A DNA stretch of 45,359 nucleotides from Catajapyx aquilonaris (taxonomy: Eukaryota). Numbering within the stretch: the first letter of the stretch is position 1; each line of letters opens with the position of its first letter. The stretch is taken from positions 1 through 45,359 of the forward strand of contig JYFJ02003189.1 in assembly GCA_000934665.2 (NCBI GenBank). Direction: 5' to 3'. The position numbers and the translations under genes were made by a program. Below, one piece after another: positions 2,354 through 42,822 of the stretch. The notes under the pieces were generated by a model. It saw only the letters and a program-made list of their open reading frames with translations. It made no database searches and was not told where the DNA came from.

Positions 2354-2933
2354 TTAAAATGCTGATGAGAATTATCTCATTTTCTCCACTGCAGTATGGC
2401 AACATTTCAGAACATAATTGCTCATCACATGCAACCCAAACTGCCAGAGCCTTGCCGAGCTGCCTGACACATTCACTTTAAGCACACTCGAGTCTCTTGC
2501 ACCTCAATAACAACATACCAGCATTTTCCCCCCTGCACCCATGTGGAAAAATGGTAAAAAGGGACCAGTCCTTACTCCTTAGGACATGATGGCTATGCCT
2601 AATCAAAGCCTACTCAATGTGTCACAATAGATATGGGAAGGACAGAACTGCCAGCTGCGATGTGGCTCCCACTGCTTTGACACACATCATGCCATGTTGC
2701 GTGGGCTTTCTTTGGACACATCAACCATGATGGCAAGTTTGGTGCACATAGTAGCTTACCCTTAGTTTAACAGCTTTAGTTTTTAGGGATCTATGCAAGA
2801 AGTACGTAAGTGCAATTGCATTCCAAACACCAAAATTGCCCCTTTCGAGTTCCATGGTTCAATTCTGAGTAAATTCCAAAAGTTGGAAAGCAAAAATCAT
2901 CACATGTCTTAATTCCTTAGCATACTGATATAC

Positions 2934-3535
2934 CTGTTGGTCTTGTAGCTGCACATGTCACATGAGTAGAGTTCCATGTCAATGACATGTGCCCTCCATA
3001 AGTGCACACTCACAGTCCTCCACCTGGAAAACACTTCAGTGCATTCAGGACACTCAAAGCACCCACTACGATGGCATCGTCGGTGATATTCAATGTTATC
3101 ATGAGACTTCATCCGCACTGCACAGCCTTCCTGGTTGCACTTGTACCCCAGTTCCTTCTCACCTAGACGTATTGATGGATTAATCTTTCGCAATGCAGTA
3201 ATACCCATGTTTTTCGAACCTCTTGGTCGCCCCCGCCGTTTTGAATTTTCAGTTTCTTTTGTGTCAGAGTCTGAACTTTGGTCCTCACGACTGTCCATAT
3301 CACTTGGGTCACCTTTACTTTCACTGTCATGTCTTGGTGCCAATGCAATATACATAGCGCCAGATGACTCCTCACCATCACTGCTGTCATCAATTAGTTT
3401 CATAACTTCACAATGTTCATCACTCTCAGATTCGTTGCACGCCTTCTTTTCTTCCAGGCTATACACTTTAATTGCATCTTGATTGTCCATGTAAGTTTGG
3501 TGTTGTGGAGGAGCATCTTTCTTCTTCTTCTTGCC
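2934..3535 (-). CDS. C2H2 zinc-finger protein, coding exon 3 (AT-hook plus start of the C2H2 array); gene apparently continues beyond the left edge
   Basis: Acceptor TTTTCCTGCAG|GGC (phase 0) and donor AG|GTATAT (phase 2). Encodes the AT-hook KRRGRPRGSK, fingers CNQEGC..H..CH and CPEC..HLWRAH, and the first half of a third finger CDMC. No further zinc-finger exon was recognised in 1-2933. Confidence 0.92.
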
Positions 3536-3622
3536 CTGCAGGAAAATAAACCATGCAAGTTAAGGGTTCAATTTTGTGCAAATCATAGAAATTACTGAGT
3601 AATTAGCATTATAATTTTAATA

Positions 3623-3855
3623 CAGTAAAACCTCGATATAATGCTATCCCGCTTTTAATGCTCCTTTTTTCTGGTCCCTTGATCAGCCCCATAAGGCCCA
3701 ATGGTAAATTTTCCCGCTAATAGCGATTCCCACTTTTAATGCTTTCCCAATATACTGCTCGGTTTCCCTTGTCCCCAGACACACTTATCGTACTTCCCGC
3801 ATATAACGCTACTTTTGGGCGGTCCCGTAAAGAGCGTTATATTGAGGTTTTACTG
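3623..3855. mobile_element. pogo/Tc1-mariner-type MITE
   Basis: TIRs CAGTAAAACCTCGATATAATGCT / AGCGTTATATTGAGGTTTTACTG, flanked by TA on both sides. Confidence 0.9.
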
Positions 3856-4442
3856 TATAACGAATGCAGCAATCAAGTATCTCATTACCCGACGATGCAT
3901 TGACCTGCTCGTATAAAAGTAATTTGACTAGGAGCCTGGTATAACCCAGGAAGTCGACCAGCTAGTGTAGAGAGGTGTAAATTTAGTGATTTTCTTCCTC
4001 CCTTAAAAATTACTTAAACTATTAATCTTAATCACTATTGCAGATCTACACATGCCTCGTGCAGAGGGGCAAAACAAAATGCAAGATTAAAGCAAAGTAT
4101 AAAAATGAACTCATGCTCATTAATAAGTAATTAAACCTTGCTCAGAGAAAAGGGGGTATGTCATGTTTTGTGACAAACCAGGAATGCATCCGTCTTGAAG
4201 GTCCACCAGCTTGGGCACAAACAGAATTTAGGGTCATACTTATGATGATAATTACTAATTACTTTATTAAGAAGATAAGACAACTAAGAACACGATGCAT
4301 GGAAGGAAGTACAAGGAAGAGGTCATGGCCTTTTTACAGGATATCCTCCTGCAATAATCTTCGCAATAATGGAAAAGATTGGACCACCTCAAAGTTAAAC
4401 ATTAAGTTAAACATCTCCAGATAGTAATCAAATTACTCTCAC

Positions 4443-6062
4443 CTTGATCTCTTTGTCCAGCTGAGCAAGTGCTGCAGACATCACTTTATCCAGTAACACT
4501 TGCAGCTTCGCTTCATTCATCTTGTGGTCTTGTACCAAGTGCACCTTAAGTGGTTTCTGGCTGAAAAACACATTGGAGCACCCAGGGCACTGCAACTTTG
4601 GCAAGCGTTGCCTCTGCTTATGCTTCTCCCCATCACTGTCTTCATCCTCCAACTCCATGTCTGATTGAGTCATGTCTCCTTTGTGCTCTTCATCAATGTG
4701 TCTTGACACCCCATCTTTGTCCATGCACAAAAAGGGGCAGAACTTACACTTGAAACAAGCTACTTGTTGCACTAGTCCTGTACGCCGTTTTGGAACTCGC
4801 AGCTCTATCTTAGATTTAGCACCTGCCCTCTTCTTTGCCTTCTCTGCACTCTTGTGTGCAGCAACAATTTTACTCATGTTTTTGCCCTTACCACTATGAT
4901 GTCGCTTGTACAGTGTGTCAGGAGGAACTGACTCAATATCACCATTATTTCTGTACTGTATGTCAGAATTGAAATAATCACCATCTACCATTATGTCTGT
5001 AGTTCCACTCACACCATCCACTTCCATCAATGACGATGGTTCACTAAATGTGTACGAGTTGGTGGACGGAGCCTGACTAAAATGAGGTGAAAACGAATTT
5101 GGCACAGTCTTTTTGTCATCCACCAAGGTTACAGTAGTCACAGGTGAATACGATGGTTGTGAAGATGTCATGACAGGATCGGAAGAAAGGAAATTTGCCA
5201 ATGTTGCAGCAACACGAGTGTCACCAAGGTCGTGCAGTGGTGGTAACCGAACTAATGATGCATCTTCATTGCTGCCTATTTGCAGGTCATCGTCAGTCTG
5301 TGTCACTGCACTTATTTTATGGGATTGACGTGATGTTCTATTAGAGCCCAGTACATTTAGATCAAGGGTTAGTGCATCAGCCAAGAGTCCAGATGGAAAT
5401 GACCCACTCAGTTCTGAGGTTGAGAGAGAAGAAAGCACAGAGCAAATTTGATTGGAAGATATATTGGGTAAAAAGGACTTCTGTCCAAGCATGTCTGACT
5501 GGGATGGTGGAAACATTGTTGATGAACTCCCAGGTGAAGATTTCACTGCACCTAAGTCATGGAGGTAGAGATCTGATATTGGATGAAGCATTGATTTCAC
5601 TTCTGACACTGGTGGTAATGGTTTCGTCAATGATCGATGTGGGGGTGGCGCCAGCAGGTCAAGTGATCCAAGTGAAGTATCTGCCTTAGACAGTGAATCC
5701 ATAGCCATTACAGACATATCAGACGTGAAAGGTGGTGCTGAAGTGATCACTAGGTCATCAGTCACAGTTGGTGAACGGGACATCCCACTTGTCATGATGT
5801 CTGTTGTTGAAAGTGGTAAGTCTGGTATTGATGATGATGTGGGTGGGAGGCTATCAGCTTGAGATATTCCACGGGGTGGAAGAGAGGAGGTTGGTGAGTC
5901 AGCAAGGTCAACCACCATCACTGGAAGATGCAATGACGTGGACTTGGTCTGCTTCGGCTCCTTTCCTGTAGGACCAGGCAATGATGGCGCTAGTTCAAGG
6001 TGGTTCACCGGAGAAGCAATTGGGTGTTTGTCGTGAACTATGGAGTTTGCCATTGTAAATGC
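4443..6062 (-). CDS. C2H2 zinc-finger protein, coding exon 2 (540 codons: S/P/T-rich region plus two spaced C2H2 fingers)
   Basis: Lies within the 557-aa ORF. Acceptor TTTTACAG|GCA and donor AAG|GTGAGA, both phase 0. Fingers CKFC-x12-H-x4-H and CPGC-x12-H-x4-H. In frame with both flanking exons. Confidence 0.93.
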
Positions 6063-6528
6063 CTGTAAAATGAAACAAAAATGAATATTAGTTTCTCCCA
6101 CAAAAAGGTGGTCCCTTGATGTGGCTAGAAACAGAAGTCATATTAAGTGCCCTATTGCTGAAGCATTAAAGTGGGTATTCTACAAAACAAACAACATGAT
6201 TATACCCTAACCAGGTATACATGGTGCAGCTGTCCGGCAACTGTCTTCCAAAAACCCCTGAACAGTAACCTGCAAACTCCACATGGTTGTACCATTGCAA
6301 ACTATGATGATTATAATAATGCTGAATTTTAAGATATGCCAGTAACAATGCAATAAACATGACTCCCATTACAACCAATACAATTCCAAACTAAACATAA
6401 GACACACAAGACCAGTGTTTTTCCACAAAAACATTTTTAAAAACCAATATACTGTATAGGATGCCAAAAACTTGCCTACACTTCTGATCCAAAAAAGTAT
6501 TTTCCCTGCCAATAAAATAAAATCAATA

Positions 6529-8008: not shown

Positions 8009-8159
8009 TTTGCAAGTCTTCTTTTCAGGTGAGGGGCTTCAAGCCAAACCATAGCAGAAACCATATCTGAAAAGACCTATATATTAATATGAAGTACGAG
8101 TTATTTTGCAACCAGCTTGTCATGTTAATGGTCACTCAACAATGCCAATGTGCCATCAT

Positions 8160-8229
8160 TGCCCTCACCAGGAATTGAACCTAGGACCACCAGCTTTGTG
8201 CTGTTGCTCTCCCACTGAGCTATGAGAAC
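8160..8229 (-). other. tRNA-like element (pseudo-tRNA / tailless SINE head), copy 1
   Basis: GTTCTCATAGCTCAGTGGGAGAGC...CTAGGTTCAATTCCTGGTGAGGGC. Acceptor, D and T stems pair, but the anticodon loop is shortened. Confidence 0.7.
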
Positions 8230-8256: not shown

Positions 8257-8700
8257 AGGTACTATATCGCTCAAAAACATAGGAGACGAACTTGACTCCA
8301 GTACAGCCTGCACTTGAATGTGCAGAATCATCTCTATGTTTTTGAGCGATATAGTACATTCACACGGGCACGAAATTCCTAGCAAGTGCTTGGAAAGTTT
8401 TATTCCAGGTTTTGTCACCCGTCCAAACGAGAAAGTAAAACTCGGAAAGTCTGCCACAAATTGGAAAAGATTCCAAGTTGGAGAAAGTAGGAATCTCGCT
8501 CCAACATGGAATGTGGGGTCACGTGACTTCCGTGTGCAAGTGCTTCAGGGGCGCATGCCTCCATTCCCTCCCCTCCACTCCTCTCTCCTGCTCTTTTTCT
8601 CCCTCTCATTGTTGGGTTGCATGGGTGGGGCATTTCATCTGTTTTAACCTGGCTCGTGAGGCCAATTGCGACTGGGAAGTTGGAAAATATTTGTAATCTA
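8257..8700. mobile_element. Older truncated copy of a PIF/Harbinger-like MITE, interrupted in its TIR
   Basis: Begins AGGTA[insertion]CATTCACACGGGCACGAAATTCCTAG. It is the diverged reverse complement of 8765-9108 over about 345 bp. Confidence 0.8.
8262..8354. mobile_element. 93-bp TA-targeting MITE
   Basis: Perfect TIR CTATATCGCTCAAAAACATAG / CTATGTTTTTGAGCGATATAG with TA duplicated at 8260-8261 and 8355-8356. Confidence 0.85.
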
Positions 8701-8701
8701 C

Positions 8702-9108
8702 AGGTACGTTCACATGGGCGCGAAATTCTTAGGAAAGTGCTGGAAAGTAGATTCCACTAAAAGTAGATTCCAAGTAATTTCCAACTTCCCAGTGACAGTA
8801 GTCCACACGAGCCAGGTTAAAACAGATGAAACGCGCCACCCTCGCAACCCAACGAGAGGGGGGAAAAGAGTAGGGGGGAAGTGGAGGGAGGGAACGGCGA
8901 CATGCACCCCTGAAGCGCATGCGCTCAGAAGTCACGTGACCCCACTTTCCATGTTGGAGTGAGATTCCTACTTTCTCCAACTAGGAATCTTTTCCAACTT
9001 CGGGCAGACTTTCCAAGTTTGTACTTTCCTGTTTGGGTGGGTGACAAAACCTGGAATTCAACTTTCCAGGCACTTTCCTAGGAATTTCGCGCCCATGTGA
9101 ACGTACCT
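8702..9108. mobile_element. Complete MITE, PIF/Harbinger-like (superfamily tentative)
   Basis: Near-perfect TIRs AGGTACGTTCACATGGGCGCGAAATTC.TAGGAAAGTGC / GCACTTTCCTAGGAATTTCGCGCCCATGTGAACGTACCT. TSD not clear. Confidence 0.85.
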
Positions 9109-13014: not shown

Positions 13015-14333
13015 GTTAACCTGGCATGATTTTATAAAGTGTTGGAAAGTTAATTTCAGCTGCCATATGTGCTCTCGTACAAAATCCACGATTTCGGCTA
13101 TGACTTCTAAAGTACTTATATTAAATGAACTTCATGATGAGACAGCCCACTGTATACGCTTGTAATGCCCCCTCGAAGTTATGCTATACATTGTATAAAA
13201 ATAATTGTTATTATCTCTGTCAGTCTCAGGGAACAATAGATTACTCAGAAAATAAGCTTCCATCTACTAATGCTATAAAAATCGAAGAAAAAAATTATCG
13301 GAGGTACTTATGCAGAGCAATATGTAGCCATGTGCAATTGAAAAAGTTGTACGGTAAATTCGCAACATTCGGCAGCAATCATCTCTGTATCCTTTGTTTG
13401 CAATATATTTTAGCTTTCAATTTTCTATTAGGCCTATACCCTGCCTATACTCGCTCATTTGCGCAAAAAAAATCTAACTAAGTAAACAGAGGAAAAAAGC
13501 TGCCCTACAAATTCCCTATCTCTCTTTCTATAATTAATTAGGAAAATCTCCCATTAGGCCTATAGGTATTCACATAGACACATACATAATCCAACATAAT
13601 CGGTGAGTTATTAGCTCTTGGTGATATTCGCCTTACGTACTTTGTATTGTCACAACCGGGCCTAACAATCATGAAGTTCGTAGAAATCCGTGTCCGGCAT
13701 CCATCAGGTTGCTTACGTATACCTTCGCCAGCAGTCAGTTACATACCGTAGTAGTCACATTATTATTTTTATGTCCGTCCAATCACACCTGATACAACTT
13801 ATAGGGGGACAGGTAACCACAAATGTCTGGATCACCAAAATAATGTGGTTGTTTATGATAAGCACGGGTTACAGGCTTAGGGGTTGGAAAATGCCCCCAT
13901 CATTATTGTGTATGCAGATGAAGGTCTCTATGTCAAAATGCACATAATTATGGGGTGCTGCAACACCAAGCTATGCGATTAGTCATAAAATCTGGTTTAT
14001 CTCTTGCTTCCAGCAAACTAAGCCTACCACAGCAGGCATATTCTATTGTAGGCCTATAGGCTGTGTAACTTCATTCGTGTGCCTGATACAGAATTATAGA
14101 AAATTAAAACGTTTATTCCTACCACACCTGTCTCGATAATGAACGCCCAAATAGCTCAAGTGAGAATATCAGATATAGCCTATAGCGCTGTAGGATGAGT
14201 CTAACAACTAACAAGTAGGCTTATTCGCGAACAGGTGTGGATGCCATCAAAGTGGCAATTCTGCAGTTTGCAAGTTGTCCAATAATGGCAGACCTCTAGT
14301 TGATTCAGGTGTTTCGTCAATCAAACTACAGAC

Positions 14334-14558
14334 CTTGTAAAGTAGCGTCTAATAATTAGGATCTTCTCAAAGCTGATCCGCAGGGGTTTGGCGCTGGCGG
14401 AGGTTACTTGGAAACATTGTGGATTCTCCACATCCATCCAAAATATGAAGAGACACCTTCGGGCTCGGCTTCATGGAGTGACAAAGAGAAGTCAGCTGGG
14501 GAGGAGATCTTGGAGAGATTGAATTATTCTTTCTGATGTTCCGGTTTGACATGTTGTC
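14334..14558 (-). other. Candidate 5'UTR/uORF exon of the zinc-finger gene
   Basis: Acceptor TATCTTCAG|GAC and donor CAAG|GTCTGT. Non-repetitive, higher-GC island with a 63-codon frame ending TGA at 14367. No homology recognised. Confidence 0.4.
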
Positions 14559-15173
14559 CTGAAGATAGACCGTGAGATAGACCAAATATGTATGGCTCTA
14601 CGTAGAAAAATAACAATTTTTCTTTTCCTTTTGTCTAGCTTTTCTTATTCATGCTGCTATAGTGTCTAATATGCCACTCGTAATCGAATATCACATGTCA
14701 AATTGTCAAAATAGGCAAAACAGATTTTCCTTGGGTGTCTACCGTACATACAGCCAGAATAATTGAAGGGTGTGGTGGAAAAACAGGATAAGTCCATTTT
14801 TGTTACTTGCGATAAAATACAGAAAAACTGAATTCCCGGAAAATTTCAAAAATGTTTCTAATTATATTTTTTCTTGAATAGGATGATACCAAAATCAACA
14901 TGCACCAGAATATGCAGTTTGTACGATGCTGTTACTACCACATTCTACAGTGGAGTATAATGTGGACAAGTCTTGTTTTAGCACTGAATCAGAATCAGAC
15001 ATGTCCAAATAAATAATTATTTTTGTGTGTATGTTATGAGCATGGACAAATTTTTTCTCAATTATAGGCATACATATAGTGTTACAAACTCATCACCTAA
15101 TTCATCATCAGAAATGCAGATTCGTCATCACACTGTTCAGCCATACTGCAGGGCAGTGATTATACTAACTAAT

Positions 15174-15830
15174 GGGGCATTCCACGTCAACTCGGACCAC
15201 TTTTCCGACAAATATTTTCCGATTTCGACCAAAATTCATGGGTTTGTAGCAGTCGTCGTTGTGTGTAAGGAATTGAGATTTCGTCCCTTTGTGACACGTG
15301 GTTGCGAAACTATAGGGTGTGTAATTGCGATTTTTCACTCATTTGATGCTGTCAGGGCTTCTAATGGAGGCCCGTGACCTCTGAACCCCTAAAGTGAATC
15401 CAAATCTGATACGTGATTTTGGAAGCTCTTTTAAATACCTTTAATAATATCGCATTGAAAATAGCCGGTATAAAATATTTCAATTTCAATATGGCGGCGA
15501 AATTTTGATTTTAATATAACTCAAAGTTCGCTATTTTTGGGATTTTTTGAATGGACCTCAAAATGAAGCGTGAAATGTGTGCTTCATGTTTCCGAAAAGT
15601 CTAGGAGGTGACTTTTGGAATTTCACCAGCTAGAGGGCGAAAACGCATCCGGTGCGGGCTCTGGACAGTACGCTGGTCACTTGGGAGGGCTATATTACCT
15701 CAGTGGACTACATGACAGGTCTGATTTTTGTACCAAAAGATGCAGAATGGTCACAAGATGGTAGAACCACCCATAATTCATTTTCGGCCAAAAGTGGACA
15801 GATCCGGATTTTCCACCAAACCCTTCAATT
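15174..15830. mobile_element. DNA-transposon remnant with GGG(G/T)CATTCCAC end (Sola2-like, tentative)
   Basis: Begins GGGGCATTCCACGTCAAC followed by TE-like subterminal sequence. Right boundary not defined. Confidence 0.35.
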
Positions 15831-16189
15831 CCTGTAAAGCAGGGACATGCTAACACTGAAGACCTGAAATGAAGAATGATCCCAGCCACAATGGAATGAT
15901 TTCGAGATAATTATGCAAGTTGGATTTGAAGATTACATTATCACTAGTGGAGTTGTGGAATAATTTTTTTTACATAACTCATATATTTCCAGGGAACCGT
16001 AATTGCTATAACAAAAACCTGATGACCAACAAAAATTACAAGTCAAAGTTCACATTTACAAGGCCCAAATCAATTTCGCCCAAGATGTGACTAAACAAAA
16101 CGTTCAACATTTCAGGTCTTCAGGTGTTGATACCAATGACGTAGAGAAAATAGACCTCTCAACCGGCAGCGGCCAGATTGAATCGAATT

Positions 16190-16700
16190 GAAAATCCGGC
16201 GGCCATGACACTAGAGGGAAATAATAATTGCGGGAAATTTCGCAAATCAGGTTAAAATGAGGCTTTGCTGGGACAGCAAGTTCATATAGGGAGATTATAT
16301 TCAACAAATATTTAACACTGAAACTGTTTTAGATTTCGGATCTAGCGTGTCAAAATAGGTTCTAAATTCAACTTCCAGTAAAGACCACTTCGGTTTTCCG
16401 CAGTTTCCCGGGTTCACTCTATCCTTGTACAGGCGGGTAACCTTATGATTTAGATTTTGAAATTAGTTTCCTGAAATAACTACCACAATAACTACCAAAA
16501 ACCCTGAATACTGAGTTAAGTACAAGCAACCACGCATTTGGAACGTGATTTGATTTACTCTGGTCGCCATGACAGTAACGGAAAAACAATGGATTTTTCG
16601 GGTTCAGGTTGATGGGGCTAGCGGTCTCTACCACGGACGAAATTTATTTTTCATTGGTTGATAGAGTGAAACCTGTGTGCAACGGAGTCGCACCTTTTCC
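16190..16700 (-). promoter_or_regulatory. Candidate promoter/first exon of the zinc-finger gene
   Basis: CpG-containing unique region downstream of the DUSP 3' end. YY1/Pho-like CATGGCG and ATGGCCGCC motifs and a CCAAT on the minus strand. Donor AGA|GTAAAT at 16558. Confidence 0.35.
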
Positions 16701-18761
16701 ATGTTTTCCTTACTGAGCAGGTTTCCGTTAGGTAAGGCAAAAATACACTGAAAGCAAGGGTAAAAATCTATAATGGGCAAGTTGCTGCTACAGACAGGCT
16801 CTGCTTTATCGAGCAGTAATGAGTGCAAAATGGAACTTAATTATTTGAAATAAAACAACGCGTGTCGATGGTACAATTCCCATATTTCTTGCTTTTTTAT
16901 TTGTCGAAAATATAATAAACATTAATAAGGGAAAGTGCCACACGCATATGCAATTATTTTGATTCCAAGCACCTTAATAGGAGTCACTGCGTCCGCTTCT
17001 CATCTATAAAAGCATATGCCGATCCTATTAACACACAACAATACGTAAGGTTTCCATACTTTTTTTTACGTAACACTGAGTTGCTAAATAATTTATCTGT
17101 GAGCAACTAACAGGAGTCTCTGATACAGAGACGAGGCAATTAATGCGCTTTTTCTTAAAGTGAAACAAAACCATTGTGTCTATTTCCTCCAGTTAAACCT
17201 AGACTCGAGAGACTCATGCGAGATTATTGCCGAGGTAACAATGCTCCATTTCAGTGCATGTAGGTGAGGTCTATGTATATGGTCTAGGATTGGCTTCGGT
17301 ACTGTATTACTTTTTTTTTTTTAATCGGATGAAGTATAGAAGTTGAAAGACAGTGCCGTATAGTTCCAGGATCGCCTGTGGTCGTATGCGACCAAAACAA
17401 TGCGGCAAAATAAATGACAGGCCAGCGAAAATGGTATACCACAGTACAGTACAGAAACATTCTTGTCACTAAGTCCCTTTGTGGGACGATACCTTGTTAA
17501 AACCTCTGACTGAATTGAGAATCAAAAGCCATTCCCGCCACCACACACTTGGATGGATCCAAAGATACATAGCAGGAAGAGATGGGAAATACAAGTATAG
17601 AAAATGCTCGAAGAGAGTCTTTCTTTCAAAACTCCTCCGTTGAACTAAACAAGTGGACGGTTTGGTATGCAACATTCATCTCTTCTCTCATACACAGCCA
17701 TGTCTAACATGTCCATCTCTTAAAAAAATAAACATCGCAGCACCAGCATCAGCACCATGTTTAGATTATAACGATATCCGTCAACAACCAACAGAATTGT
17801 TAACCACCATTAAACATGATCAAACATGACCAACATGATTTTATCTCTTTTTTCCAGAAAATAGTTCTTATACTTTGTAAAGAATTTCTCTTTTCCACTA
17901 GCTCTGCTCTCATCCCTCATTTTGTCGATCCCAGCGAAGCTTGTAGAGAAGATAGGCAGTAGCAGTCGTGTACCGTGATAATGGTAAGATTATGTGTCCT
18001 TGCAAAGTTGCATATGATAATGTCGCAAGCAGAGGCTGAGCATTCGCACATTTTGTGGCTTGATTCACGTAGATAACACTTGACCAGCAAGTGAAAAGCG
18101 AATTAATGAAATACTCTGACTAAAATAACCTCCCACGTCCCTGACCCCGGGCATAATTTCCCACCTTTTACTTATGGGTCAAGCCCGTATATAGTCGCAT
18201 CCACATAGTTACATGTGATTGACAAATCCTTTCCTGCACCTCGGATGAAAGCTCCGTACAAAACAGGTAGAAAGAAATGGTGAAAAGTCTCATCGGAACG
18301 AGCCAATATGTATTACAAAACAAACTGGTCCTCGAGTGACTACTGCAGTGGAATCTGCTTGTAACGGAACTAACAGATCAGGAAGATACCTCTGTTACAA
18401 ACTATTTGGTTAAACGGTGCTATATCAACGGTGCATAAATCTCAGAAATTTCCGTCAAAAGTGTTTCCCACTGCAAATGATTGAGCTCACATTGTGAAGC
18501 GCCTCTTCATCTATAAACAAGATAGTGTCAAACTATGTCACGCCGTGTGTCAATTTGTGAAAGGGCGATGCGATCTAGAGGAGCGGACCTTGGGTCGGAC
18601 TTGTCAACAAAAGGACGCGGAGGGTGCAAAGAGTGGGTGTTTTACGGACCGCCACTGTCGGTGAGCCTGGTGGTAGGTCACCTTCTGGAGGGGCAGTGGA
18701 TTGCCCAGAGTGTTCCGTACAGCTCCCAGAGGTCGGGTCGACGGGAGCTGCTTCCTCCTAG

Positions 18762-19045
18762 TCATGGCGGGCGGGATGGGGGTGGAGGTCGGGTAGAGGA
18801 CCCGGAGCGACCCGCCAATCCACTGGTGCTGCCCCGCCATGGGGTGCGGGCCGATTGCGAGCGAGTCGGCAGGGCGGTGAGTGATGGAGCAGGTGATGGC
18901 CCACGGGAGGCTTCCCTGGAGGTGGGAAGTGACGACGATGAGGCGGACATCGCTGTCGTTAGTCTCCCTCGTCGAAGGTCCCATGGTCCCGGAGGAACCG
19001 CAGGAGGGTCGCCTCCGGACACGCGCGGGGACGGCGACGTTGACC
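18762..19045 (-). CDS. DUSP22: DUSP22/15-like phosphatase, terminal coding exon (S/P/R-rich tail)
   Basis: Acceptor GCCAG|GG completes the phase-1 codon from 20383 (AGG). Reads STSPSPRVSGG...RPPPPSRPP to TGA at 18762-18764. GC-rich. Confidence 0.7.
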
Positions 19046-19157
19046 CTGGCATATATCATATAGTATTCATCATACCGGTACTTGATCTTATCATGATCTT
19101 ATGCACTTATAGAGGAGGCGTTGTCAACTCCAGTACACCTTACTATCGGCGTTTGCG

Positions 19158-19231
19158 TGCTCTCACCAGGATTCGAACCTGGGACCTCCGGCTTGAATAA
19201 GCCGTTGCTCTTCCAACTGAGCTATGAGAGA
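19158..19231 (-). other. tRNA-like element with near-complete cloverleaf but 8-nt anticodon loop, copy 2
   Basis: TCTCTCA TA GCTC AGTTGGAA GAGC A ACGGC TTATTCAA GCCGG AGGTC CCAGG TTCGAAT CCTGG TGAGAGC A. Intact A and B boxes. Confidence 0.75.
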
Positions 19232-20382
19232 GCGTTTGTCGTACAGCGAATAATTAATTACGAAGGAATGATCACAGACCGGCTGCCACAGAGTTGGCTC
19301 GCTCGTCATTGAATTTAGTCGCATTATGATATAAATGGTATAGTCCTACAGCTCTGTGACAGACGTTCCCTAGAGGCTTGTTGACAATGCTTGTTATTCT
19401 GCGTTTGTGTATAGGTTGTAGACTGTGTTCGCGTGTAAGCCAAAAGTGAGCTGTCCACCTTCATTTTGAAAGCGTGAAGATACCGCCTGCAGCGTGCGCG
19501 GCAGGTATTTTTGTAATAACGTGAAGCATTCAAGCCACTTTATACCATGATCATATCAAAAGTACAAGACAATCGCAGTTTTCTTTGACTCTATAAGAGT
19601 TTTTCTGACTTGCGATTGATTGACTGTCATGTGGCGGATGTGGAAGCTCGTTTTTGCTTTACACGCAGCATAATATACAGTATATAGCTTGATCAAATGA
19701 AAACGATATTGTGCCACAAAAATGTTTTTTAAAACCCCTGAATTGGGATGGCATACTACAGGGACGGTTGAAGACTAGTAGGCCTATTGTACTCATAAAT
19801 TCAGACAGTGTGTCGATAAGAGTTGTGTGAGTGGGGCAGCATCATATTAAAGATGGCGGTGACCTTTTCACACCGTCCACAGAAGGTTTTGTGCATAGAA
19901 TGACAAAATCCATCGAAATTTTTTTGAGAATGAATTAGTAATATGGACCTGTCACGTATCTCGCAGCCAGGTGTCTAGGAGTGGTGTAAAATGTTCTCGA
20001 TGTCACAGCGCGAATCTCCTGGCCTGGCTGCGGCTACTCTGACATTCTGCTGTCACTAAATTCTGGATGTCATTTGACACTGCTCATGTACATGTGATTG
20101 CAATATACATGACAGATCTTAATTTGTCTGCATTTTCCAAAACATTTCGATGGGTTTTGTTCCTCCTGTTCACATAACAGTTATATCTGGTTGCATATAT
20201 CTGAAGGGGTCGTCTTTCAACAGATGCTTCCTGACTCACTTTCGAAGAACACTCTGAACTTATGAGCATCATTATGAAGCCTCTAGTGTTCCTGTTAAAC
20301 TATCCCAAACTGCGGGTCTTAAAAACAATTGTTGCGCTTTTATTGTTCTTATTTGATCCACCCTGGTATAAGCACAGCTTAC

Positions 20383-20627
20383 TCTGAGTGTTCCGAGGCG
20401 ATGGCGACCGCGCTTCAACGGCAGCTGGCAAGGAACGTACCGACGAAAAAAAGTCGTTACGCTCCCTGGAGCGGTACAGTACGCAAGGCACGCGTTGCAG
20501 AGACGACGTGGAGGATGATGGCGACGACGGTTGACGTTGCCATGCTCTTGGGGATGCTGGGGCTGACCTTGCTGATGAGGTCAGCTCAGAATCGACCGAC
20601 TGCTGGCAAGGCTTGCGTCGAAATATC
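20383..20627 (-). CDS. DUSP22: DUSP22/15-like phosphatase, penultimate exon
   Basis: Acceptor TACTCGTAG|G completes the phase-2 Arg codon. Reads IFRRKPCQQ...RSAPASPR...SPSPRNTQ. Donor CAGA|GTAAGC (phase 1). Confidence 0.7.
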
Positions 20628-20676
20628 CTACGAGTACAACTGTCAGTTTGCTGGTACCAGTGCGCATTCTGCATAC

Positions 20677-20852
20677 CTATTAGTTGAATTCCGGCATGCT
20701 CCGGATGGGCACACGCGTGGCAGACACCTTCCTTCGCAGATGGAGCGTGAAAGCATCAGATTGTTGTAGGATGATAGCAGCTTTCGGCAGGTTTCTTCAT
20801 CGTTCTCAGACAGAGGACTGTCTGGGTACTTCTCCAGTATCCGACGTCGTTC
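20677..20852 (-). CDS. DUSP22: DUSP22/15-like phosphatase, post-catalytic exon
   Basis: Acceptor CTTCTGCAG|GAA. Reads ERRRILEKYPDSPLSENDEETCRKLL...CEGRCLPRVCPSGACRNSTN, resembling the segment that follows the catalytic domain in DUSP22/15 proteins. Donor AG|GTATGC. Missed by the ORF track. Confidence 0.88.
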
Positions 20853-21787
20853 CTGCAGAAGGACATTACTCCAATTAACAAAATGGAAAATGATATCGCA
20901 CTCTTACTGGTGACCAAAGCTGATGTGAATACATCTCTTATGGTTGCAATCCTGGGGCTAAACGTGACACTTTACGGGGCCGTAAAAAATTTATGGCCAT
21001 ATCGCATCACCGTAATCCGAGGGATTAAATCCTTGAAGGAATGACTACGAAGGGACCAATGCAACTGTCAAGCAGGCTATCGATCTGCCTGCAGTGGTGG
21101 TGCCCAGAAAACCGGTAAATGCTTTTCATCATTTCGCGACTATAGTGGACATGATGCTGTCATTAGAGATGCACATCTGCCTTGCCTGTTATGACATTTC
21201 GACATTTTCTGATAGTGAGGTTTTCCTCTTCAGGGTGTCGAAATATCGCAGCTGAACGGATTATTTTATAAATATTTTTTGGCAAATTATTAGACACTCA
21301 TTCAATATTCTCTTACCCTTTTTACATAGTCGTACTGCTCAGTGTCATACGATGGTAAGGCAAAATACATTTGACGGCTCTCTGCATACTGTATTCCCAA
21401 ATATAGCAATAGCCTAGTACTAATACTCTTTGTGTGCTCTTGCATCTCCTTTGTAGCGACAGCGCCGAGCAAATTTTTTACGAGTCAGTTTGGATCATAA
21501 TGAATGCGCAAGTCGCAGTCAATCTCTAGTCATTTGGGAATATGTGTCACCAAAATAAGGGGACAAAAGTTCTACGATTTTAATATTCAACTGTATACAG
21601 TATAGGAACGTCATCAGCGTACAGATTGTGAACCCACCTTTAAACTTCTAGGCTATAATTAACAATTATTTTTGACTTCTACTGAAGCGCATAAATTGAT
21701 GTATGCCCTTTGAAAAATATGCATATAGAGAGACTTCCATTACTCATGCAAAATGTCACCAAAAGGTTACATATAGAACCGTTTTAC

Positions 21788-21959
21788 CTCATTCATGCGT
21801 GTGTTTTCAAATTCCTGCAGCTGCTTTTGAAATCCGATGTTGGGATTGGCCACCGCCCTTGCCCCTCGGACGATCTTGAGCGAGTCTTGCCAGTTGAAGC
21901 ATGTGACACTCATCACATAAGCCACGGCCACTGTCACGCTGCGTGACATGCCTGCCAAG
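21788..21959 (-). CDS. DUSP22: DUSP22/15-like phosphatase, catalytic P-loop exon
   Basis: Acceptor TTCCAG|C completes the catalytic Cys codon. Reads (C)LAGMSRSVTVAVAYVM...RAVANPNIGFQKQLQEFE. Donor GAG|GTAAAA. Confidence 0.96.
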
Positions 21960-22562
21960 CTGGAATAAAAAGAAAAACAAATCTCCACACCAGCATCTTT
22001 CCAGCACCCTAAATCAATTAATTAGTCTCATCGATTTATTTCCCAGGACGGATGGCCTCAATCCTGAAAACACGATCCGTTCGGTGTTCGGTTACACTCG
22101 ACGAACTCAATCTAGCATTGCAATTTAATCCCTAGTTACACAGATTTTTCATTTGCATGATAAAGATCAGCTGCATCAATATGCAACAATGGCTGATGAC
22201 GACATCAAGTACATGTGATGTAGTGTAACAAAAGGGCATCCCAGGAAACGATTGTTCATCACGTCAGGCTTTCATTTTTCTGATTTGTGCGAATAATCAC
22301 TTTTTTCCCAAAAAGATATGATTTTTACTGAATAGTCTATTTAATACCGTGGTTCAGCTAAAATACGTAGATGGCTTATGATGGTGCAGAAGAGTAGACC
22401 TCATGGTATATCGTGTTGTACCATACTGTAAGGATTAACTACTATTATCCTTATCTCAGGAACAAAAATAAAATGTTATCAAGAGATTGCCGTGCCTTTA
22501 CCCTTCTAGTTCACTGGACTTGGCTGCCGGGTTGGTATGATATGTGTTACGTGATACTAATA

Positions 22563-22838
22563 CAGTGTTGGATATTAATCGCGTCATACTGCTTGCGACA
22601 TTTCTGAAGCGGCAGAAGTGCAAATCGAAGTGATAGAGTGTGAGCCGTGCGAGTAAGAAGAGGTAGGCCTTGAGTGACATCACCGGCTGGGGGGCAATGA
22701 AGAAAAGGCTTATCCCCACCAGTGACGTCACCCATACCATTTCTTACTCGCATGGCTCGCACTCTATCACTTCGATTTGCTCGTCTGCCGCTTCGGAAAA
22801 TGTCGCTAGCAGTATGACGTGATTAATGTCCAGCACTG
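22563..22838. mobile_element. Tc1/mariner-type foldback MITE
   Basis: TA|CAGTG...CACTG|TA with roughly 100-bp imperfect inverted arms. Confidence 0.88.
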
Positions 22839-25800
22839 TACCAGTACGTATGGGCCTGCTTAATTAATAACTATATTTTAATACCACACAGTTTACCATA
22901 CGCATCTTCAAGAACATCCATTATCCAATCAATGTGCTATCATTAACGCAGTTCTGAACTACTGAGTGTATAGTTTTCGCTGGCTGCTAATATTACGAGT
23001 AATTGTAATAAATCATACTGTGACAATAATAAACCAACATTAGTGTGCACTGCTTCTGGTGTTAATAGCTGCTGCTAACTTTAGCAGAAAGACAAAATAC
23101 TCACTGAACTTTAAAACAGTGCTATAATCGCTTGACGATCAACGAAAGTGAGTGCAACAATGGTTCTAATATGCCCCAGATTAGAATCGCCCCCACATAT
23201 AACTCCCGTGGAGTAACGGAGTCTGGACAATAATAGTTCTCACTTCCTCCTTTCGCGTGTGAAGGACAATAATTCCGGGTCAGCGACTTGGTAGCCAAGC
23301 AACGAGGCAATTTCTTTGCAGACGACGTACACAAGAACTAATCAATCCTTGTTGAAATGCAGCAAAGAAAACCCAGTCACCCGAATTCTCTCCGGGAAAT
23401 TAGACTCAAGGAAATGCCCCTTCCGAGCAAATGTCCGGTCCAGGTGTGGTGAATTTCAATAGAGAGCCAAATGAGAGGCTGTAGTGTGATCGATCAACCA
23501 CATCCGACAATACGTTCCATTAAGGTAGTCAGCTGTTAGATGCTCTTCGAAAATCTTCATTTTGAACCGGCAGTTTATGGGTGTGGTTCTCTCATCCTTA
23601 TTTCCTGTATGCCTTTCATGTACAGACCTCGTTATGTGTGCGATAAATGGGGACGCGTGGGTGGCTTTTGCGTAATGTCGGAAGTGAAAATGCGACCACG
23701 TTCGCCGTGATGTCAACAAGTGCACGCTAGAGGATTCTAGATTTTGACCTCAATTTTGAAGCTGGATAGGTCGGGATTGTACATGTGCCAAAACTCGTGT
23801 GTTCATTCAGGACTAGGATTTCAAGGCAGAACAAATATTGGATGAGGATGTCTACACGATGACACGATTCAAAATCACTTACGACGAAGAGATGACAATT
23901 TTTATTCATATTTAATGACGATCAAGGGACACTACTTCAGTAAATATTAACCGTACTGAATTGAGTATCAGGCCCCACAAGTGTTTTAAAAGCGACGGAA
24001 AAAAACTGCACGGTTTTTTCCTACTAACTTTTAGTAGTGTGGTAGGCCCCGGTGGAATCCCGCGCTCACTATACCCTGTGCTTAGGAATTAAAACTTTTT
24101 CTGTCCCTATTAAAACTCGTAGTGTTCCTGGGACCTACGTAAATGGACTGCAACACACTCCAGCATGTACCGGTAAATTAGGGGGAAAAATGGTTGTGAA
24201 TAGCAATAATAAGTAAACTCATTTCATTAGGCTTACCCACTTCTGAGCAATATACAGATATAGGCTTACCTATTGTTCACTATTTCACTGAAAGGGCGAA
24301 AATTATGAAATTTACTTTTGCAATGTGTATGGGATTTCAACATATCCAGTTTCCCCTTCTGATGTATCGTTGCCCTAAAAATTTGAGTTGCACATATATG
24401 TTTAAATGATACGAATCACTTACATAACTAGTGACGTTCCCGTATTCCAATACTGTTCCAGCCTCATACTGTACAGTTTATATAGCCACTTTTTTTCCTT
24501 TATAAAAAGCCCAGCGCAATTTCCACAAATCCATCTCGTTTTTATGTACCCCGCCCAACCATTTATGATTATAGGATCTATTTGCCTATACCTCCAAAAA
24601 ATCAATACACGTGGTCTCAAAAGGCAGGTTAGATCTTCATAGGTATAATCATCGTGGACCGTTCTCATATCAGCTGGCAATCTGGTCGGAACGCACTATA
24701 CAGTATACTGGACGACTTTGCTATGAAGGGGCGCACTCTTTTCAAAGACCTTCACGCTGCCTTGCCACCGGGCAACCAGTTAATTAGGGAGCTGTCAGAG
24801 GCATTCCTACTGGTACACACTACTGGCAAAAAAAAACTGCCTTGAAAAAAACTGGCATGAAGCGCCAATGCAACTGAGGTGATAATAAATATGATTAATC
24901 ATCGCTACTTATATGTTATTCGATATGTGCTTCTTTGTGAGCATACAAGAGAAATCTCACAAGTCTAATTATTGTGGTGGTTTTGAGTTATTTACACGAA
25001 TAAGTAGTACACGAATAGTATTCTGTTGATGGTGAAGTCGTCGAATCGTAATGAGACAGCTAGCCAGGATTTTCTGTCTTTACTACCATGTATGCAAATT
25101 GTTTGCTTTGAATTATCTCGAATTTTTTCCCGACTTAGAGGACTTCTATGCCCAGTTTTTAATCATCAGCTTATGTTCCGGTAACCCATTTTTGTCAAAA
25201 ATTACAACCAGACAGCGTTAAATACCTGATATTGGCCGTCATTAATCACTGGTACCAAATTTAATAACAGTTAAGATCGCACTTTAATTCCTCATAATTC
25301 TCCAGTACGACCTAATTAGCCAAAAAAAAATCCAACGATCAATTTTTGCATTTCGTTTGCGATAATAATCTCATTAAAATACCCACAGGACCTGACACCA
25401 TATAAATTCGCGGCGCATGTAGCTAATGAGACAAGATGATCTAATAATTTTTCCACAACTTCAGCCCAATCCGACTTGCATCATAAGCACCTTTCAGACA
25501 TGTGAAAATGAACCCAGTGAAAGGAATTAGGTCCTAAAGTGCTACTTTTGCTAATTCAGTTTCGCTCTGATGTATAGCATCGTCCCTCGACAATGTAAGT
25601 AAATGTCTGGGAAGATTGGCCGAGAATCAACTATTCAGATTGAGGGCGAGGCTAAATAGCACTTTTTTCTTATCTGTTCAACGTGCCTAATGAATACTAC
25701 TCCAAATGGCCCAATTTTAATTAGAACTGCTGGTGAAGGACTTTTCATTAATATATTAGTGGCAGCTGTTTCACTTAAGTATTTCATCGTTTCGGAGTGT

Positions 25801-26325: not shown

Positions 26326-27927
26326 CTTAGGGTGTCTGGTGTGGAGTGGAGGGGGAGAGGTCGCCTAATCCCTTTTTTGAGAAGTTATGCTGTGGGGACT
26401 GTATACTGTATATGAGCTCACAATTTAACAAGCAGTTTCTGAATCACCCTGTAAACTATGATAATTGCTTTGAATGATTCATCTGATATATACGGTACGT
26501 ATTGTTATAAATAGCTGGCTCGACAGTAAATTGTGCGTATAGTACTATTGTGACCGTTTAGAGTCACTATATTACTCCATCAGTTTTGACAAAGTGGGGA
26601 TTAGCGGCATATTTATTTCCACTCTAACCTCACATTAGTTGAATATAGTTGCGGCTGTTTCGAGCGTAACAACTTTGATTAAGGGCGGCAGAGGAAATAC
26701 CTGCACATGCAAACCTGTATACAGCAAGAGAATTAATAACAAAGTTTTGTAGAATATATTCTGCACAAAAAGTCATGCAAAGTTTTTTTTTACTTTGAAA
26801 ATTTGAAGGAGGGTTTCTTATAAAGCATTTTCTTAATATCTGTTGGTCTGCAGGGTATAGCCTATACCGAGAAGACTCACAAATATGCCGAGAAGCACGC
26901 AAAGGCCTATAGGCACGATAGGTTAGGGCTCGGAAAATTGCGACTTACGCAAATTACTAATAGCAGACACGGAAGCCCGCCCTTTCTCTCCCATTAAAGT
27001 TTTTTGCTCCTTCCCTTCGTGAGGTCTAGTATGATATAGTTGAGTCGTTAAAGTGACGGGAGCAGGGATAATTTAAAAATAGGTGTAGGCATCAATTTAT
27101 TTATCTCTTGGGTCTTTAAAAAACATATAAGTTGCACACACCTGTAATTTCATGGTTCAGATTTTTTTGATACATCATATAGAAACGCCGATTTTTTTTT
27201 TTTGCAGCAATCACTACAGTGCAATATCTGTAGGCGGTGCCGTACCCAATGTGATTAGTTCCTTCCGTCCTTTTCCTTGGCTGATTGGTCATAATTACAT
27301 AGTGCGGTGGCGAATGGCTTTTTAGGTGCCATAGCACCTACTCTCTATGATGAACCAATAAATAGGTAAAATTAAGATTTTCAGATTAGGTTCAGTTCAT
27401 AATCAACTTTAACTTTTGAGATATATTGAATTATGCTGATATTGTCAAAACATTGACCTGCCAATATGAGAATACACTACATGTTTACTGGACTTCGTAT
27501 AGGCTTTATGCTATTTCATTCACAGAATTATTGAGGTCGTATTTTAATAAAGCAGCTGTTGCAGAGGATTTAAATTATGGAACATTTTAAAAGAATAGTA
27601 CTTGCAATACTTTTGTTATCCTCGAGTTTTAAAATGCTGTACCGTACGCTATATCTCCTACGGGATATCCTCGCTAGAGTAGTTCTTCTCTTTATAATTC
27701 TCTGCGCTCAAACAACCGTGTTTCGAGTACTGTTGCATTACAGAAAAGATCTCTATTAAGACTTTACTATGCGCCTAGATAACAATTCTGTAGTTTGGCC
27801 TCGGCTCTAGCCTACTGCCCGCTCTGAAATGGTTCAAGTTATAGTATCGATCCTAGCACAGCTGACATCTGTTTTAAAGGCACTAGGACCTTGAGGCTGT
27901 ACATTTCTCTTGATTTCTTATTTTACA

Positions 27928-27995
27928 TGCCCTTACTAGGATTCGAACCTGGGACCTCCAGCCTGTTGGTGCTCTTCCAACTGACCTATAAGAGC
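27928..27995 (-). other. tRNA-like element, copy 3
   Basis: GCTCTTATAGGTCAGTTGGAAGAGC...GGAGGTCCCAGGTTCGAATCCTAGTAAGGGC. Acceptor stem fully paired; anticodon arm partly deleted. Confidence 0.7.
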
Positions 27996-37358: not shown

Positions 37359-37483
37359 CAATGAATAAGCACGTTTCCTCCTTTCAACCTGGCCGTATGG
37401 ATAAAGTCGTTGCAAACTGGGAAGAACTGGGTGAGGTTCTGCTGAGGCGAATCCGAAGCCAGGATGCATAGGTACTCCTTATC
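37359..37483 (-). CDS. DUSP22: DUSP22/15-like phosphatase, exon with general-acid Asp loop
   Basis: Acceptor TTTGCAG|GAT. Reads DKEYLCILASDSPQQNLTQFFPVCNDFIHTARLKGGNVLIH plus TG. Donor TG|GTGAGT. Missed by the ORF track. Confidence 0.96.
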
Positions 37484-39385: not shown

Positions 39386-39992
39386 GCCGGAGGTTGACTG
39401 GGGAGAATGAGTACTGTTGGAATAGGAAGCTCCTCGGGAATGGGAGAAGTTAAGTGGTGCAAGGGCGTACGGTCTGGTAGACGACTTTAGAGGCCTATCT
39501 CACCTGGGGGGGGGGGGGGNGGTGGAACATTGAACAGTATCTATACGACACAAAAAGGAAATGGAAGAACTTCAACAATTTTCGTAAGAGGCAGCTCCGG
39601 ATTATTGAGAAATACTACCACGTAACTTTGCTGGTTTAATCTCTCACGGAATAGGGTGGACGTGGTGAAAGTCAAAGCTGCTGAATCCGTTTACCAAGTG
39701 TGTTTACAATCCGCTTATGCAACTATTTTAAGACTCTAGTACCTTCTTTTTGAGTCATCCTAGATGTAAGGTTTCTCTGGAGAACACCTGCATCAGGTAT
39801 TGGATCATAACTTGCGGCTTAACGAATCCGTGGCATATTTGAATCAACATGTAAGCTACACAACATTTTTATGATGTCGATAAAGAATATATTGAGTCAG
39901 ATGTGCATAACCTAATTGTAGAATAAGCAGAAAGGAGACTGGGTAAGGATCAAATAACTTCGATGTAAGTGTTAAATTTCTGAGCAGCAATA

Positions 39993-40267
39993 CAGGGTGT
40001 TAATCATAAGCGTGTCACCAGAAAAGGTGGTGGTAGAGGGCGCAGGTGTGAACATTTTTGCATAAGAAACTAGGGGTAGGAAACGCACCCTCACCGAGTT
40101 ACGCCCCTTTCAAGTTTGCGGCAGGCAGTGTGCAAGAGGCGTGCGGCACGCGACGGAGTGACTCGGTGAGGGTGCGTTTCCGATCCCTAGTTCCTTATGC
40201 AAAAATGCTCACACCTGCGCCCTCTACCACCACCTTTTCTGGTGACACGCTTAGCATTAACACCCTG
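39993..40267. mobile_element. Young Tc1/mariner-type foldback MITE
   Basis: TA|CAGGGTGTTAAT...ATTAACACCCTG|TA with about 115-bp near-perfect inverted arms. Confidence 0.92.
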
Positions 40268-42705: not shown

Positions 42706-42822
42706 AGGGAAGAGGCGGCGTGCTGCGTCATGGATGGCGATGATGTGCGTGATCTGATGCTTCTCCAGCTGGCTCGCGTCCTTCGAATCTCTGTAGTTGC
42801 CTACGTACAGTCCGGGCAGGAT
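42706..42822 (-). CDS. DUSP22: DUSP22/15-like phosphatase, first exon visible in the window (start-codon exon lies beyond 45359)
   Basis: Acceptor GGTTTCAG|ATC. Reads ILPGLYVGNYRDSKDASQLEKHQITHIIAIHDAARRLFP. Donor CCT|GTGAGT, phase 0. No MGNGMNK-like first exon seen in 42823-45359. Confidence 0.96.

What the first reader, a model, noticed from the sequence alone, without database searches (positions are those of the whole stretch)
18678..18764. DUSP stop codon has a full readthrough signature: UGA-CUAG plus a 3' stem-loop
Seen (mRNA sense): CCA TGA CTAG GAGGAAG CAGCTCCC GTCG ACC CGAC CTCT GGGAGCTG. The stop is UGA followed by CUAG. After an 11-nt spacer comes a perfect 8-bp stem (18750-18743 with 18727-18720) capped by a 4-bp stem. 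The frame stays open for 27 more codons (LGGSSSRRPDLWELYGTLWAIHCPSRR) to a second UGA-C at 18680-18678. Established: UGA-CUAG is the best-known leaky stop context in animals, 3'-adjacent stem-loops stimulate readthrough, and readthrough is common in insects. Inference: programmed readthrough appends a W/Y/L-rich motif to a disordered tail, possibly a docking or localisation signal. I know of no description of this for the DUSP22/15 family.
Basis: partly seen in the sequence, partly recalled or inferred. Interest (0 to 1): 0.75.

Follow-up and report, generated by a model that had tools for sequence, protein, structure and literature searches.

The report
Probable leaky stop on arthropod phosphatase
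An arthropod gene for a DUSP22/15-type signalling phosphatase ends at a well-known leak-prone stop signal followed by a stable RNA hairpin, so some ribosomes probably add a 28-residue tail, a common trick in insects and crustaceans that is not yet shown, or shown to be conserved, for this gene.

Summary
The minus strand has TGA-CTAG (18764-18758), an 8-bp stem 11 nt later (pairing probability about 1.0) and 27 open codons to a second TGA. Six exons splice into an intact 372-codon DUSP22/15-type frame ending at this TGA. A family motif fixes the frame and puts the stop where insect orthologues stop. In this genome CTAG follows 0.14% of TGAs and such a stem 1.1%, so chance is unlikely, though my criteria were set after the fact. 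The host falls outside winged insects; its SARM1 gene also ends in TGA-CTAG, and earlier scan notes list similar cases on other DNA of this genome. Conservation is not shown. Seven insect-type orthologous loci lack the motif and structure, and the Drosophila orthologue is only a tier-3 (mostly noise) candidate. One suggestive sign: the extension matches a 24-residue stretch in the tail of the nearest homologue (shuffle p 0.001; 0.013 over all 79 tails). No RNA data were available. Verdict: probable programmed readthrough (about 0.58), a new member of a known kind. The docking role is inference, and a hydrophobic degron or neutral leak remains open.

The parts
42706..42822 (-). DUSP22/15-type coding exon (first one found; the exon with the N-terminal MGNGM seen in homologues was not found in 43000-45359)
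   Evidence: CAG acceptor and GTGAGT donor; homologous to P0002 and others; motif search for the first exon empty
37359..37483 (-). coding exon, DSPc domain up to the catalytic His
   Evidence: Pfam PF00782 E 1e-6; CAG/GTGAGT
21788..21959 (-). coding exon, rest of the phosphatase signature motif and DSPc domain
   Evidence: Pfam PF00782 E 9.8e-13; 133 homologues, many named DUSP22/DUSP15; no close paralogue in the genome
20677..20852 (-). coding exon, Cys-rich C-x3-C-x4-C-P-x-G-x-C segment shared with arthropod homologues
   Evidence: 52 representatives at E <= 0.001; followed by a 49-nt intron
20383..20627 (-). coding exon, start of the Ser/Pro/Arg-rich tail; phase-1 donor GTAAGC at 20382
   Evidence: colinear with P0004
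18765..19045 (-). coding part of the terminal exon, with the family motif S-x-P-x-S-R-x-x-S-R 56 residues before the stop
   Evidence: motif in 25 of 70 homologous tails and only in this frame here; G+C rises sharply at the acceptor; no RNA confirmation
18758..18764 (-). first stop and context, UGA-CUAG
   Evidence: CTAG follows 13 of 9,430 TGA in sampled DNA
18720..18750 (-). inner hairpin: 8-bp stem, 4-nt bulge, 4-bp cap; starts 11 nt after the stop
18687..18758 (-). predicted multibranch fold (outer 5-bp stem enclosing three hairpins)
   Evidence: outer pairs have probability 0.67-0.92; prediction only
18681..18761 (-). 27-codon in-frame extension: Gly/Ser/Arg linker followed by a Trp/Tyr/Leu-rich core
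   Evidence: no Pfam hit; single copy; match to P0004 residues about 122-146
18678..18680 (-). second in-frame stop, UGA-C (11 more codons follow to a TAA)
18604..18765 (-). overlapping 53-codon frame whose AUG overlaps the first stop (A-UGA); end of a 146-codon alternative frame of the terminal exon
   Evidence: lacks the family motif; no Pfam hit

Best explanation
The terminal exon of a DUSP22/15-type phosphatase gene ends at a programmed leaky stop. Most ribosomes terminate at UGA and release the roughly 380-residue phosphatase with its disordered tail. UGA-CUAG slows release-factor action, and the hairpin 10-11 nt downstream sits at the mRNA entry channel. A near-cognate tRNA (Trp, Arg or Cys; recalled) then decodes the UGA in a few to perhaps 10-20% of events. 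The longer form gains 28 residues: a flexible Gly/Ser/Arg linker and a W/Y/L-rich core that most likely acts as a short binding motif changing where the phosphatase sits or how long it lasts. Shown: sequence, frame, stop position, fold prediction, rarity. From the literature: that these signals cause readthrough. Inferred: that it happens here, is selected, and what the tail does. The element looks lineage-specific, not shared with insects.
For: An intact six-exon frame ends at this TGA. The family motif lies 56 residues before it, against 36-227 residues (18 of 25 between 46 and 73) in homologues. CTAG follows 13 of 9,430 TGA and an 8-bp stem follows 104 of 9,365; if independent, that is about 1.5 in 100,000 TGAs, or roughly 0.1-0.2 genes per genome assuming 15,000-20,000 genes (my estimate). 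All 17 untested human UGA_CUAG contexts gave 1.3-6.7% readthrough (PMC5868278, passages). Stimulatory stems start 7-12 nt after the stop in several viruses and in Drosophila kelch (PMC3159437, passages). The SARM1 orthologue of this genome also ends in TGA-CTAG, and mosquito SARM1 is a listed readthrough candidate (PMC5100048 supplement). The extension aligns without gaps, 9 of 24 identical, to the tail of P0004, the nearest homologue on the tree: 11 of 10,000 shuffles pairwise, 13 of 1,000 over all 79 tails. No SECIS.
Against: No conservation could be shown. Four loci of one insect-type clade end TAA-C with a 50-codon frame; three loci of another end TAG-C with 13 codons; none has CTAG after the stop. 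The two 3' regions folded are unremarkable (z +1.8 and -0.2), with no double compensatory change among 45 pairs. Drosophila CG10089 is tier 3, called by 1 of 3 classifiers and not 'conserved SCR'; the authors treat tiers 3-4 as effectively negative sets, and 2,512 of 6,158 tested genes got such a call. CG10089 is absent from the Jungreis 2016 data file. High-confidence Drosophila extensions are depleted in Leu, Ile and Phe, whereas this one is hydrophobic. Its composition fits homologous tails worse in frame 0 than in the other two frames. The amphipathic pattern is not significant (p 0.14). Chance criteria were set after seeing the element. The P0004 match lies mid-tail, in an unnamed gene call that looks unspliced.
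Confidence: 0.58

Rival explanations
1. Accidental leaky stop. UGA-CUAG and the hairpin arose by chance in a GC-rich exon. A percent or so of ribosomes read through, and the hydrophobic tail is cleared by quality control; nothing is selected.
For: Of 23 human UGA_CUAG genes only 4 have positive coding signatures. 12 of 110 windows in this gene fold at z <= -2. No conservation in insect-type orthologues. Hydrophobic readthrough tails are degraded through SGTA-BAG6-RNF126 in worm and mammalian cells (PMC10364623, abstract). G+C stays high past the second stop, so it does not single out the extension.
Against: Joint rarity of motif and stem at the right spacing; a fold that spans almost exactly the region between the stops; the P0004 match; another TGA-CTAG gene end in this genome.
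Confidence: 0.24
2. Splicing, not recoding. The TAG of CTAG is an alternative 3' splice site: joining the phase-1 donor at 20382 to 18757 gives the last 25 codons of the extension in frame with no readthrough. Or other donor/acceptor pairs put the exon in another frame, so this TGA is not the main stop.
For: The 18757 acceptor is phase-compatible with the upstream donor. The acceptor at 19045 has a weak pyrimidine tract. A second donor at 20440 gives a 28-codon end, and skipping exon 20627-20383 opens a 146-codon frame running through the TGA.
Against: The 18757 site has 2 T in its 20-nt tract, against 5-15 at the other acceptors of the gene. The hairpin spacing fits a ribosome, not a splice site (inference).
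Confidence: 0.11
3. Stop-start coupling. The stop overlaps an AUG (A-UGA) in a GCC-AUG context, so terminating ribosomes reinitiate on a 53-codon frame, and the hairpin helps hold them.
For: The AUG and the 53-codon frame exist; high G+C runs to about 18590, where that frame ends.
Against: Any UGA after a codon ending in A makes an AUG. The frame has no Pfam hit and scores poorly against tail composition after the second stop. No upstream reinitiation element was looked for or is known here.
Confidence: 0.04
4. UGA codes for selenocysteine, or the TGA is an assembly error or an edited codon.
For: Earlier scan notes report several selenoprotein genes in this genome (unchecked). No reads could be laid on the locus.
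Against: No Rfam SECIS match in 13500-21000; 0 of 7 SECIS-like pattern hits had a paired helix. The stop lies where orthologues stop, and a one-base error would hardly land before CTAG.
Confidence: 0.03

Closest known systems
UGA_CUAG readthrough of OPRL1, OPRK1, AQP4, MAPK10, VDR, MDH1 and LDHB (PMC5868278, passages read)
   Same: Identical stop and +4 to +7 context; short C-terminal extension.
   Different: Arthropod phosphatase gene; added 3' hairpin; conservation and efficiency not shown; no peroxisomal signal at the new C-terminus (ends -SRR; PTS1 consensus recalled).
3' stem-stimulated readthrough in alphaviruses, Drosophila kelch and headcase (PMC3159437, passages read)
   Same: UGA followed by a stem that starts 10-11 nt downstream, within the 7-12 nt spacers reported.
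   Different: Compact local hairpin inside a multibranch fold instead of a long-loop 10-14-bp stem; no covariation support; extension of 27 codons instead of a second large domain.
Abundant readthrough of Pancrustacea (PMC5100048, passages, section 17 and data file; PMC13278127, sections 5, 6, 7, 9, 26 and one table row)
   Same: TGA-C first stop, 3' structure, signalling gene with long introns and a disordered tail.
   Different: The orthologue is not in the fly/mosquito conserved lists; the extension is hydrophobic rather than disorder-promoting; the host lies outside the winged-insect clade and was not placed further.
Drosophila CG10089 (DUSP22/15 orthologue), tier-3 row in Supplementary Table T3 of PMC13278127
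   Same: TGA first stop; extension listed as 81 nt, against 84 here with the second stop (81 without it).

Membership tests
DUSP22/DUSP15-type atypical dual-specificity phosphatase | DSPc domain with intact H-C-x5-R-S signature | tested here: met
   PF00782 on two exons; the joined frame has no internal stop; signature split across the 37359/21959 junction as in homologous loci
DUSP22/DUSP15-type atypical dual-specificity phosphatase | Best homologues are DUSP22/15 orthologues | tested here: met
   62-70% identity over about 193 residues to full-length insect orthologues; names
DUSP22/DUSP15-type atypical dual-specificity phosphatase | N-terminal Met-Gly myristoylation motif (recalled) | tested here: inconclusive
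   First exon not found in 43000-45359; the contig ends at 45359
Programmed UGA_CUAG readthrough | UGA-CUAG at the true end of the main reading frame | tested here: met
   genomic inference, no RNA
Programmed UGA_CUAG readthrough | Stop context conserved across related species | tested here: inconclusive
   Absent in 7 of 7 distant insect-type loci with a readable stop; no close relative available
Programmed UGA_CUAG readthrough | Extension evolves as protein | tested here: inconclusive
   Match to the P0004 tail p 0.001, family-wise 0.013; match to the L005-type extension p 0.03-0.14; no database hit
Programmed UGA_CUAG readthrough | Measured readthrough above background (reporter, ribosome profiling, peptides) | not testable with these tools
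   No such data reachable
Structure-stimulated readthrough | Stable stem starting about 7-12 nt 3' of the stop | tested here: met
   spacing range
Structure-stimulated readthrough | Covariation or mutational support for the stem | not testable with these tools
   No alignable orthologous 3' region (blastn empty)
Selenoprotein | SECIS element in the 3' UTR | tested here: not met
   the UTR end is unknown, searched to 13500

The most novel reading that the evidence does not exclude
In this arthropod lineage a Trp-x6-Trp-x2-His docking motif belongs to the DUSP22/15 tail. The nearest homologue (P0004) carries it inside the ordinary reading frame, whereas this species has moved or copied it behind a structured leaky stop. 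Readthrough would then act as a switch that decides what share of the phosphatase carries the motif: a case of a constitutive motif brought under recoding control. The weaker Y-x3-W-A-[VI] likeness in the TAA-C extension of loci L005/L008/L009/L011 would then hint that the extension is old.
Probability: 0.13. Interest if true: 0.68.

Novelty: new member of a known kind. Interest (0 to 1): 0.42.

Why it matters
If real, it adds a MAP-kinase-pathway-type phosphatase (role recalled for mammalian DUSP22/15) to the genes with hidden readthrough isoforms and means annotations miss a C-terminal motif. It is also a compact natural element that combines the two classic stimulators, UGA-CUAG and a hairpin at the entry channel. 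That makes it a clean 90-nt reporter test of whether the two add up, in an arthropod outside the fly and mosquito models. It does not introduce a new mechanism.

Tried and rejected
RNA evidence: no RNA holder listed, so no reads were laid; this is no evidence either way. Relatives: the genome has none held; no look-alike scan windows; viral and prokaryotic contig scans gave no relative. The metagenome scan gave 35 loci, of which 7 had a readable orthologous stop; L007 stops at an intron and L013 showed no tail exon. Word-based protein searches with the Cys-rich exon and with the stop-spanning 42 residues found nothing; both are weak. No Y-x3-W-[AS]-[VI] motif in any homologous tail printed. 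BLASTP of the tail exons against P0004 was not significant. A codon-usage frame test was dropped because codon bias is weak here. Coding signature in the L005-type extension: 1-2 synonymous against 3-5 non-synonymous codon differences per pair of distinct sequences, no indels; inconclusive. Paralogue check: only distant DUSPs, and the extension is single-copy. Literature: 0 papers for readthrough + CG10089 or readthrough + DUSP22 + stop codon; 3 unrelated reviews for 'dual specificity phosphatase' + 'stop codon readthrough'. No hit in the bumblebee supplement or in the small supplement text held for the eLife ribosome-profiling paper (584 characters, so uninformative). The Makarova table was cut when stored and its PDF supplement could not be read, so further rows on CG10089 may exist. 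Most subscription journals are not searched.

Full report
Observation. The minus strand reads CCA TGA CTAG at 18767-18758. An 11-nt spacer leads to an 8-bp stem (18750-18743 with 18727-18720) capped by a 4-bp stem, and 27 sense codons run to TGA-C at 18680-18678. The stem has pairing probability 0.99-1.0 in three wider contexts. The 81 nt between the stops fold at z -2.9, with an outer 5-bp stem enclosing three hairpins. Fixed windows after the stop give z -0.8 (60 nt), -3.6 (75), -2.5 (84) and -2.7 (100). As a control, 12 of 110 sliding windows over the gene's 3' exons and UTR reach z <= -2, so folding alone is modest evidence. The outer stem begins 3 nt after the stop and would be melted inside a ribosome at the UGA; only the inner hairpin is placed to act (inference).

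Chance. In the window plus 23 other loci of this genome, CTAG follows 13 of 9,430 TGA. A perfect stem of at least 8 bp starting 6-14 nt downstream follows 104 of 9,365 TGA, and 0.6% of 3,000 shuffles of the element itself. If independent, that is about 1.5 per 100,000 TGAs. With an assumed 15,000-20,000 genes, about half ending in TGA, it gives roughly 0.1-0.2 chance cases per genome. The thresholds were chosen after seeing the element, and the scan covers many genomes, so this favours but does not prove selection.

The gene and its frame. Six exons with GT-AG borders (42822-42706, 37483-37359, 21959-21788, 20852-20677, 20627-20383, 19045 onward) join into 372 codons without a stop, ending at this TGA; the second stop is codon 401. 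Two exons hit Pfam DSPc, and homologues are named DUSP22/DUSP15. The motif S-x-P-x-S-R-x-x-S-R occurs in 25 of 70 homologous tails. So this TGA is the orthologous stop and not a premature one. A tail profile agreed only without composition correction. The junction into the terminal exon is inferred from DNA alone, and its acceptor is weak.

Host. On a tree of 33 core sequences the window protein falls outside a supported clade of 26 rows that holds all the named insects (95/93) and joins the unnamed P0004 (83/61, only 52 residues). The host is therefore probably an arthropod other than a winged insect; I did not place it further. This matters because abundant readthrough was found in most insects and Daphnia but not in a centipede or an arachnid (PMC5100048, section 17). 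Earlier scan notes list 23 readthrough-related findings in this genome, several said to be shared with insects (AI notes). I checked one: the SARM1 orthologue does end in TGA-CTAG, without a notable 3' fold (z 0.24), and mosquito SARM1 is a listed candidate with TGA-C. The six Toll-like genes fetched with it all end in TGA, none with CTAG. So the motif is in use at another gene end here.

Conservation. No close relative was reachable. Of 35 metagenome loci, 7 had a readable orthologous stop. L002-L004 (near-identical to the ant protein P0002) end TAG-C with 13 codons to the next stop. L005, L008, L009 and L011 end TAA-C with 50 open codons. All have C at +4; none has CTAG after the stop. The two 3' regions folded have z -0.2 and +1.8, with no double compensatory change. 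The 50-codon frame has no indels among three distinct sequences but no synonymous excess. Its Y-x3-W-A-V stretch resembles the window extension only weakly (shuffle p 0.03-0.14). Drosophila CG10089 has a TGA stop and an 81-nt extension in Supplementary Table T3 of PMC13278127, but in tier 3, by 1 of 3 classifiers. The authors treat tiers 3-4 as effectively negative sets, and 2,512 of 6,158 tested genes were called by at least one model. CG10089 is not in the Jungreis 2016 data file. Readthrough shared with insects is therefore not supported.

One positive sign. Among 79 homologous tails the extension scores highest against P0004 (44; next 33). The match is ungapped over 24 residues with 9 identities, in the pattern S-x-S-x2-P-x2-W-E-x5-W-x2-H-x2-S-R. 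Only 11 of 10,000 shuffles reach it pairwise, and 13 of 1,000 across all tails. P0004 is also the nearest row on the tree and the most identical hit (62%) of the Cys-rich exon. The stretch lies mid-tail in P0004, at a spot where the window's exon 20627-20383 keeps only the first Trp and lacks 16 residues. This may mean the extension carries a real motif of this lineage. But P0004 is an unnamed call on contigs under 6 kb that seems to run through an intron, so the stretch could be non-coding, and I could not fetch its DNA.

Mechanism. All 17 previously untested human UGA_CUAG contexts gave 1.3-6.7% readthrough in reporters, against 0.7% for UGA_C alone (PMC5868278, passages). Stimulatory stems begin 7-12 nt after the stop in several viruses and kelch (PMC3159437, passages). 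If this is the stop of the mRNA, some leak is therefore very likely (I put it near 0.8). Whether it is selected is less sure (0.58). The added residues are a Gly/Ser/Arg linker and a hydrophobic core with two Trp and a Y-x-x-L. A binding motif is the likeliest role if functional, but the helix amphipathicity is not significant (p 0.14). High-confidence fly extensions avoid Leu, Ile and Phe (PMC13278127, section 7), and hydrophobic tails can be sent for degradation by BAG6 (PMC10364623, abstract only).

Rivals. (1) Accidental leak with clearance of the product, 0.24. (2) Splicing, 0.11: the TAG in CTAG is a phase-compatible acceptor that would yield the last 25 codons without recoding, and other junctions open other frames; but its tract has only 2 T in 20 nt against 5-15 at the gene's other acceptors. 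(3) Stop-start coupling on the AUG overlapping the stop, 0.04. (4) Selenocysteine or sequence error, 0.03: no SECIS by Rfam or pattern.

Novelty. Searches for readthrough with DUSP22, CG10089 or 'dual specificity phosphatase' found no relevant paper, within a library that lacks most subscription journals. The only record is the weak tier-3 table row. The mechanism is well known and common in this part of the tree, so this is a new member of a known kind. It is a good, cheaply testable candidate whose conservation and function remain open. Interest 0.42.

Noticed in passing
window 20468-20429 (minus strand): A strong hairpin at the 3' end of exon 20627-20383 (z -4.8 in a 60-nt window; z -3.3) buries a possible alternative 5' splice site GTACGT at 20440. 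Use of that site would end the protein after 28 codons in another frame.
   Followed up: partly
window 20676-20628: Predicted intron of only 49 nt between the Cys-rich exon and the first tail exon.
   Followed up: no
window 19157-19231, 1972-2049, 8154-8229, 27922-27965: Four related tRNA-like copies, probably tRNA-derived SINE heads; one lies about 110 nt upstream of the terminal-exon acceptor.
   Followed up: partly
L067, minus strand, stop at locus position about 935-933: The SARM1 orthologue of this genome ends in TGA-CTAG followed by a likely splice donor about 24 nt later, agreeing with an earlier scan note.
   Followed up: partly
L005:4104-4259, L008:12740-12895, L009:10545-10700, L011 from 9477: Insect-type DUSP22/15 orthologues end TAA-C followed by 50 open codons with no indels among three distinct sequences; an independent weak readthrough candidate.
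   Followed up: partly
L061-L067: All seven TIR-domain genes fetched from this genome end in TGA, hinting at a strong TGA preference at stops.
   Followed up: no
window 2909-6137 (minus strand): Large exons (569 and 216 codons) of a C2H2 zinc-finger gene downstream of the phosphatase on the same strand.
   Followed up: no
window 8384-9075, 22555-22846, 39989-40271: Long inverted repeats of MITE-like shape.
   Followed up: no
window 18604-19044 (minus strand): The terminal exon has a second frame open for 146 codons, reachable by skipping exon 20627-20383; it starts with an R-R-R-P-S stretch like that of homologous tails.
   Followed up: partly
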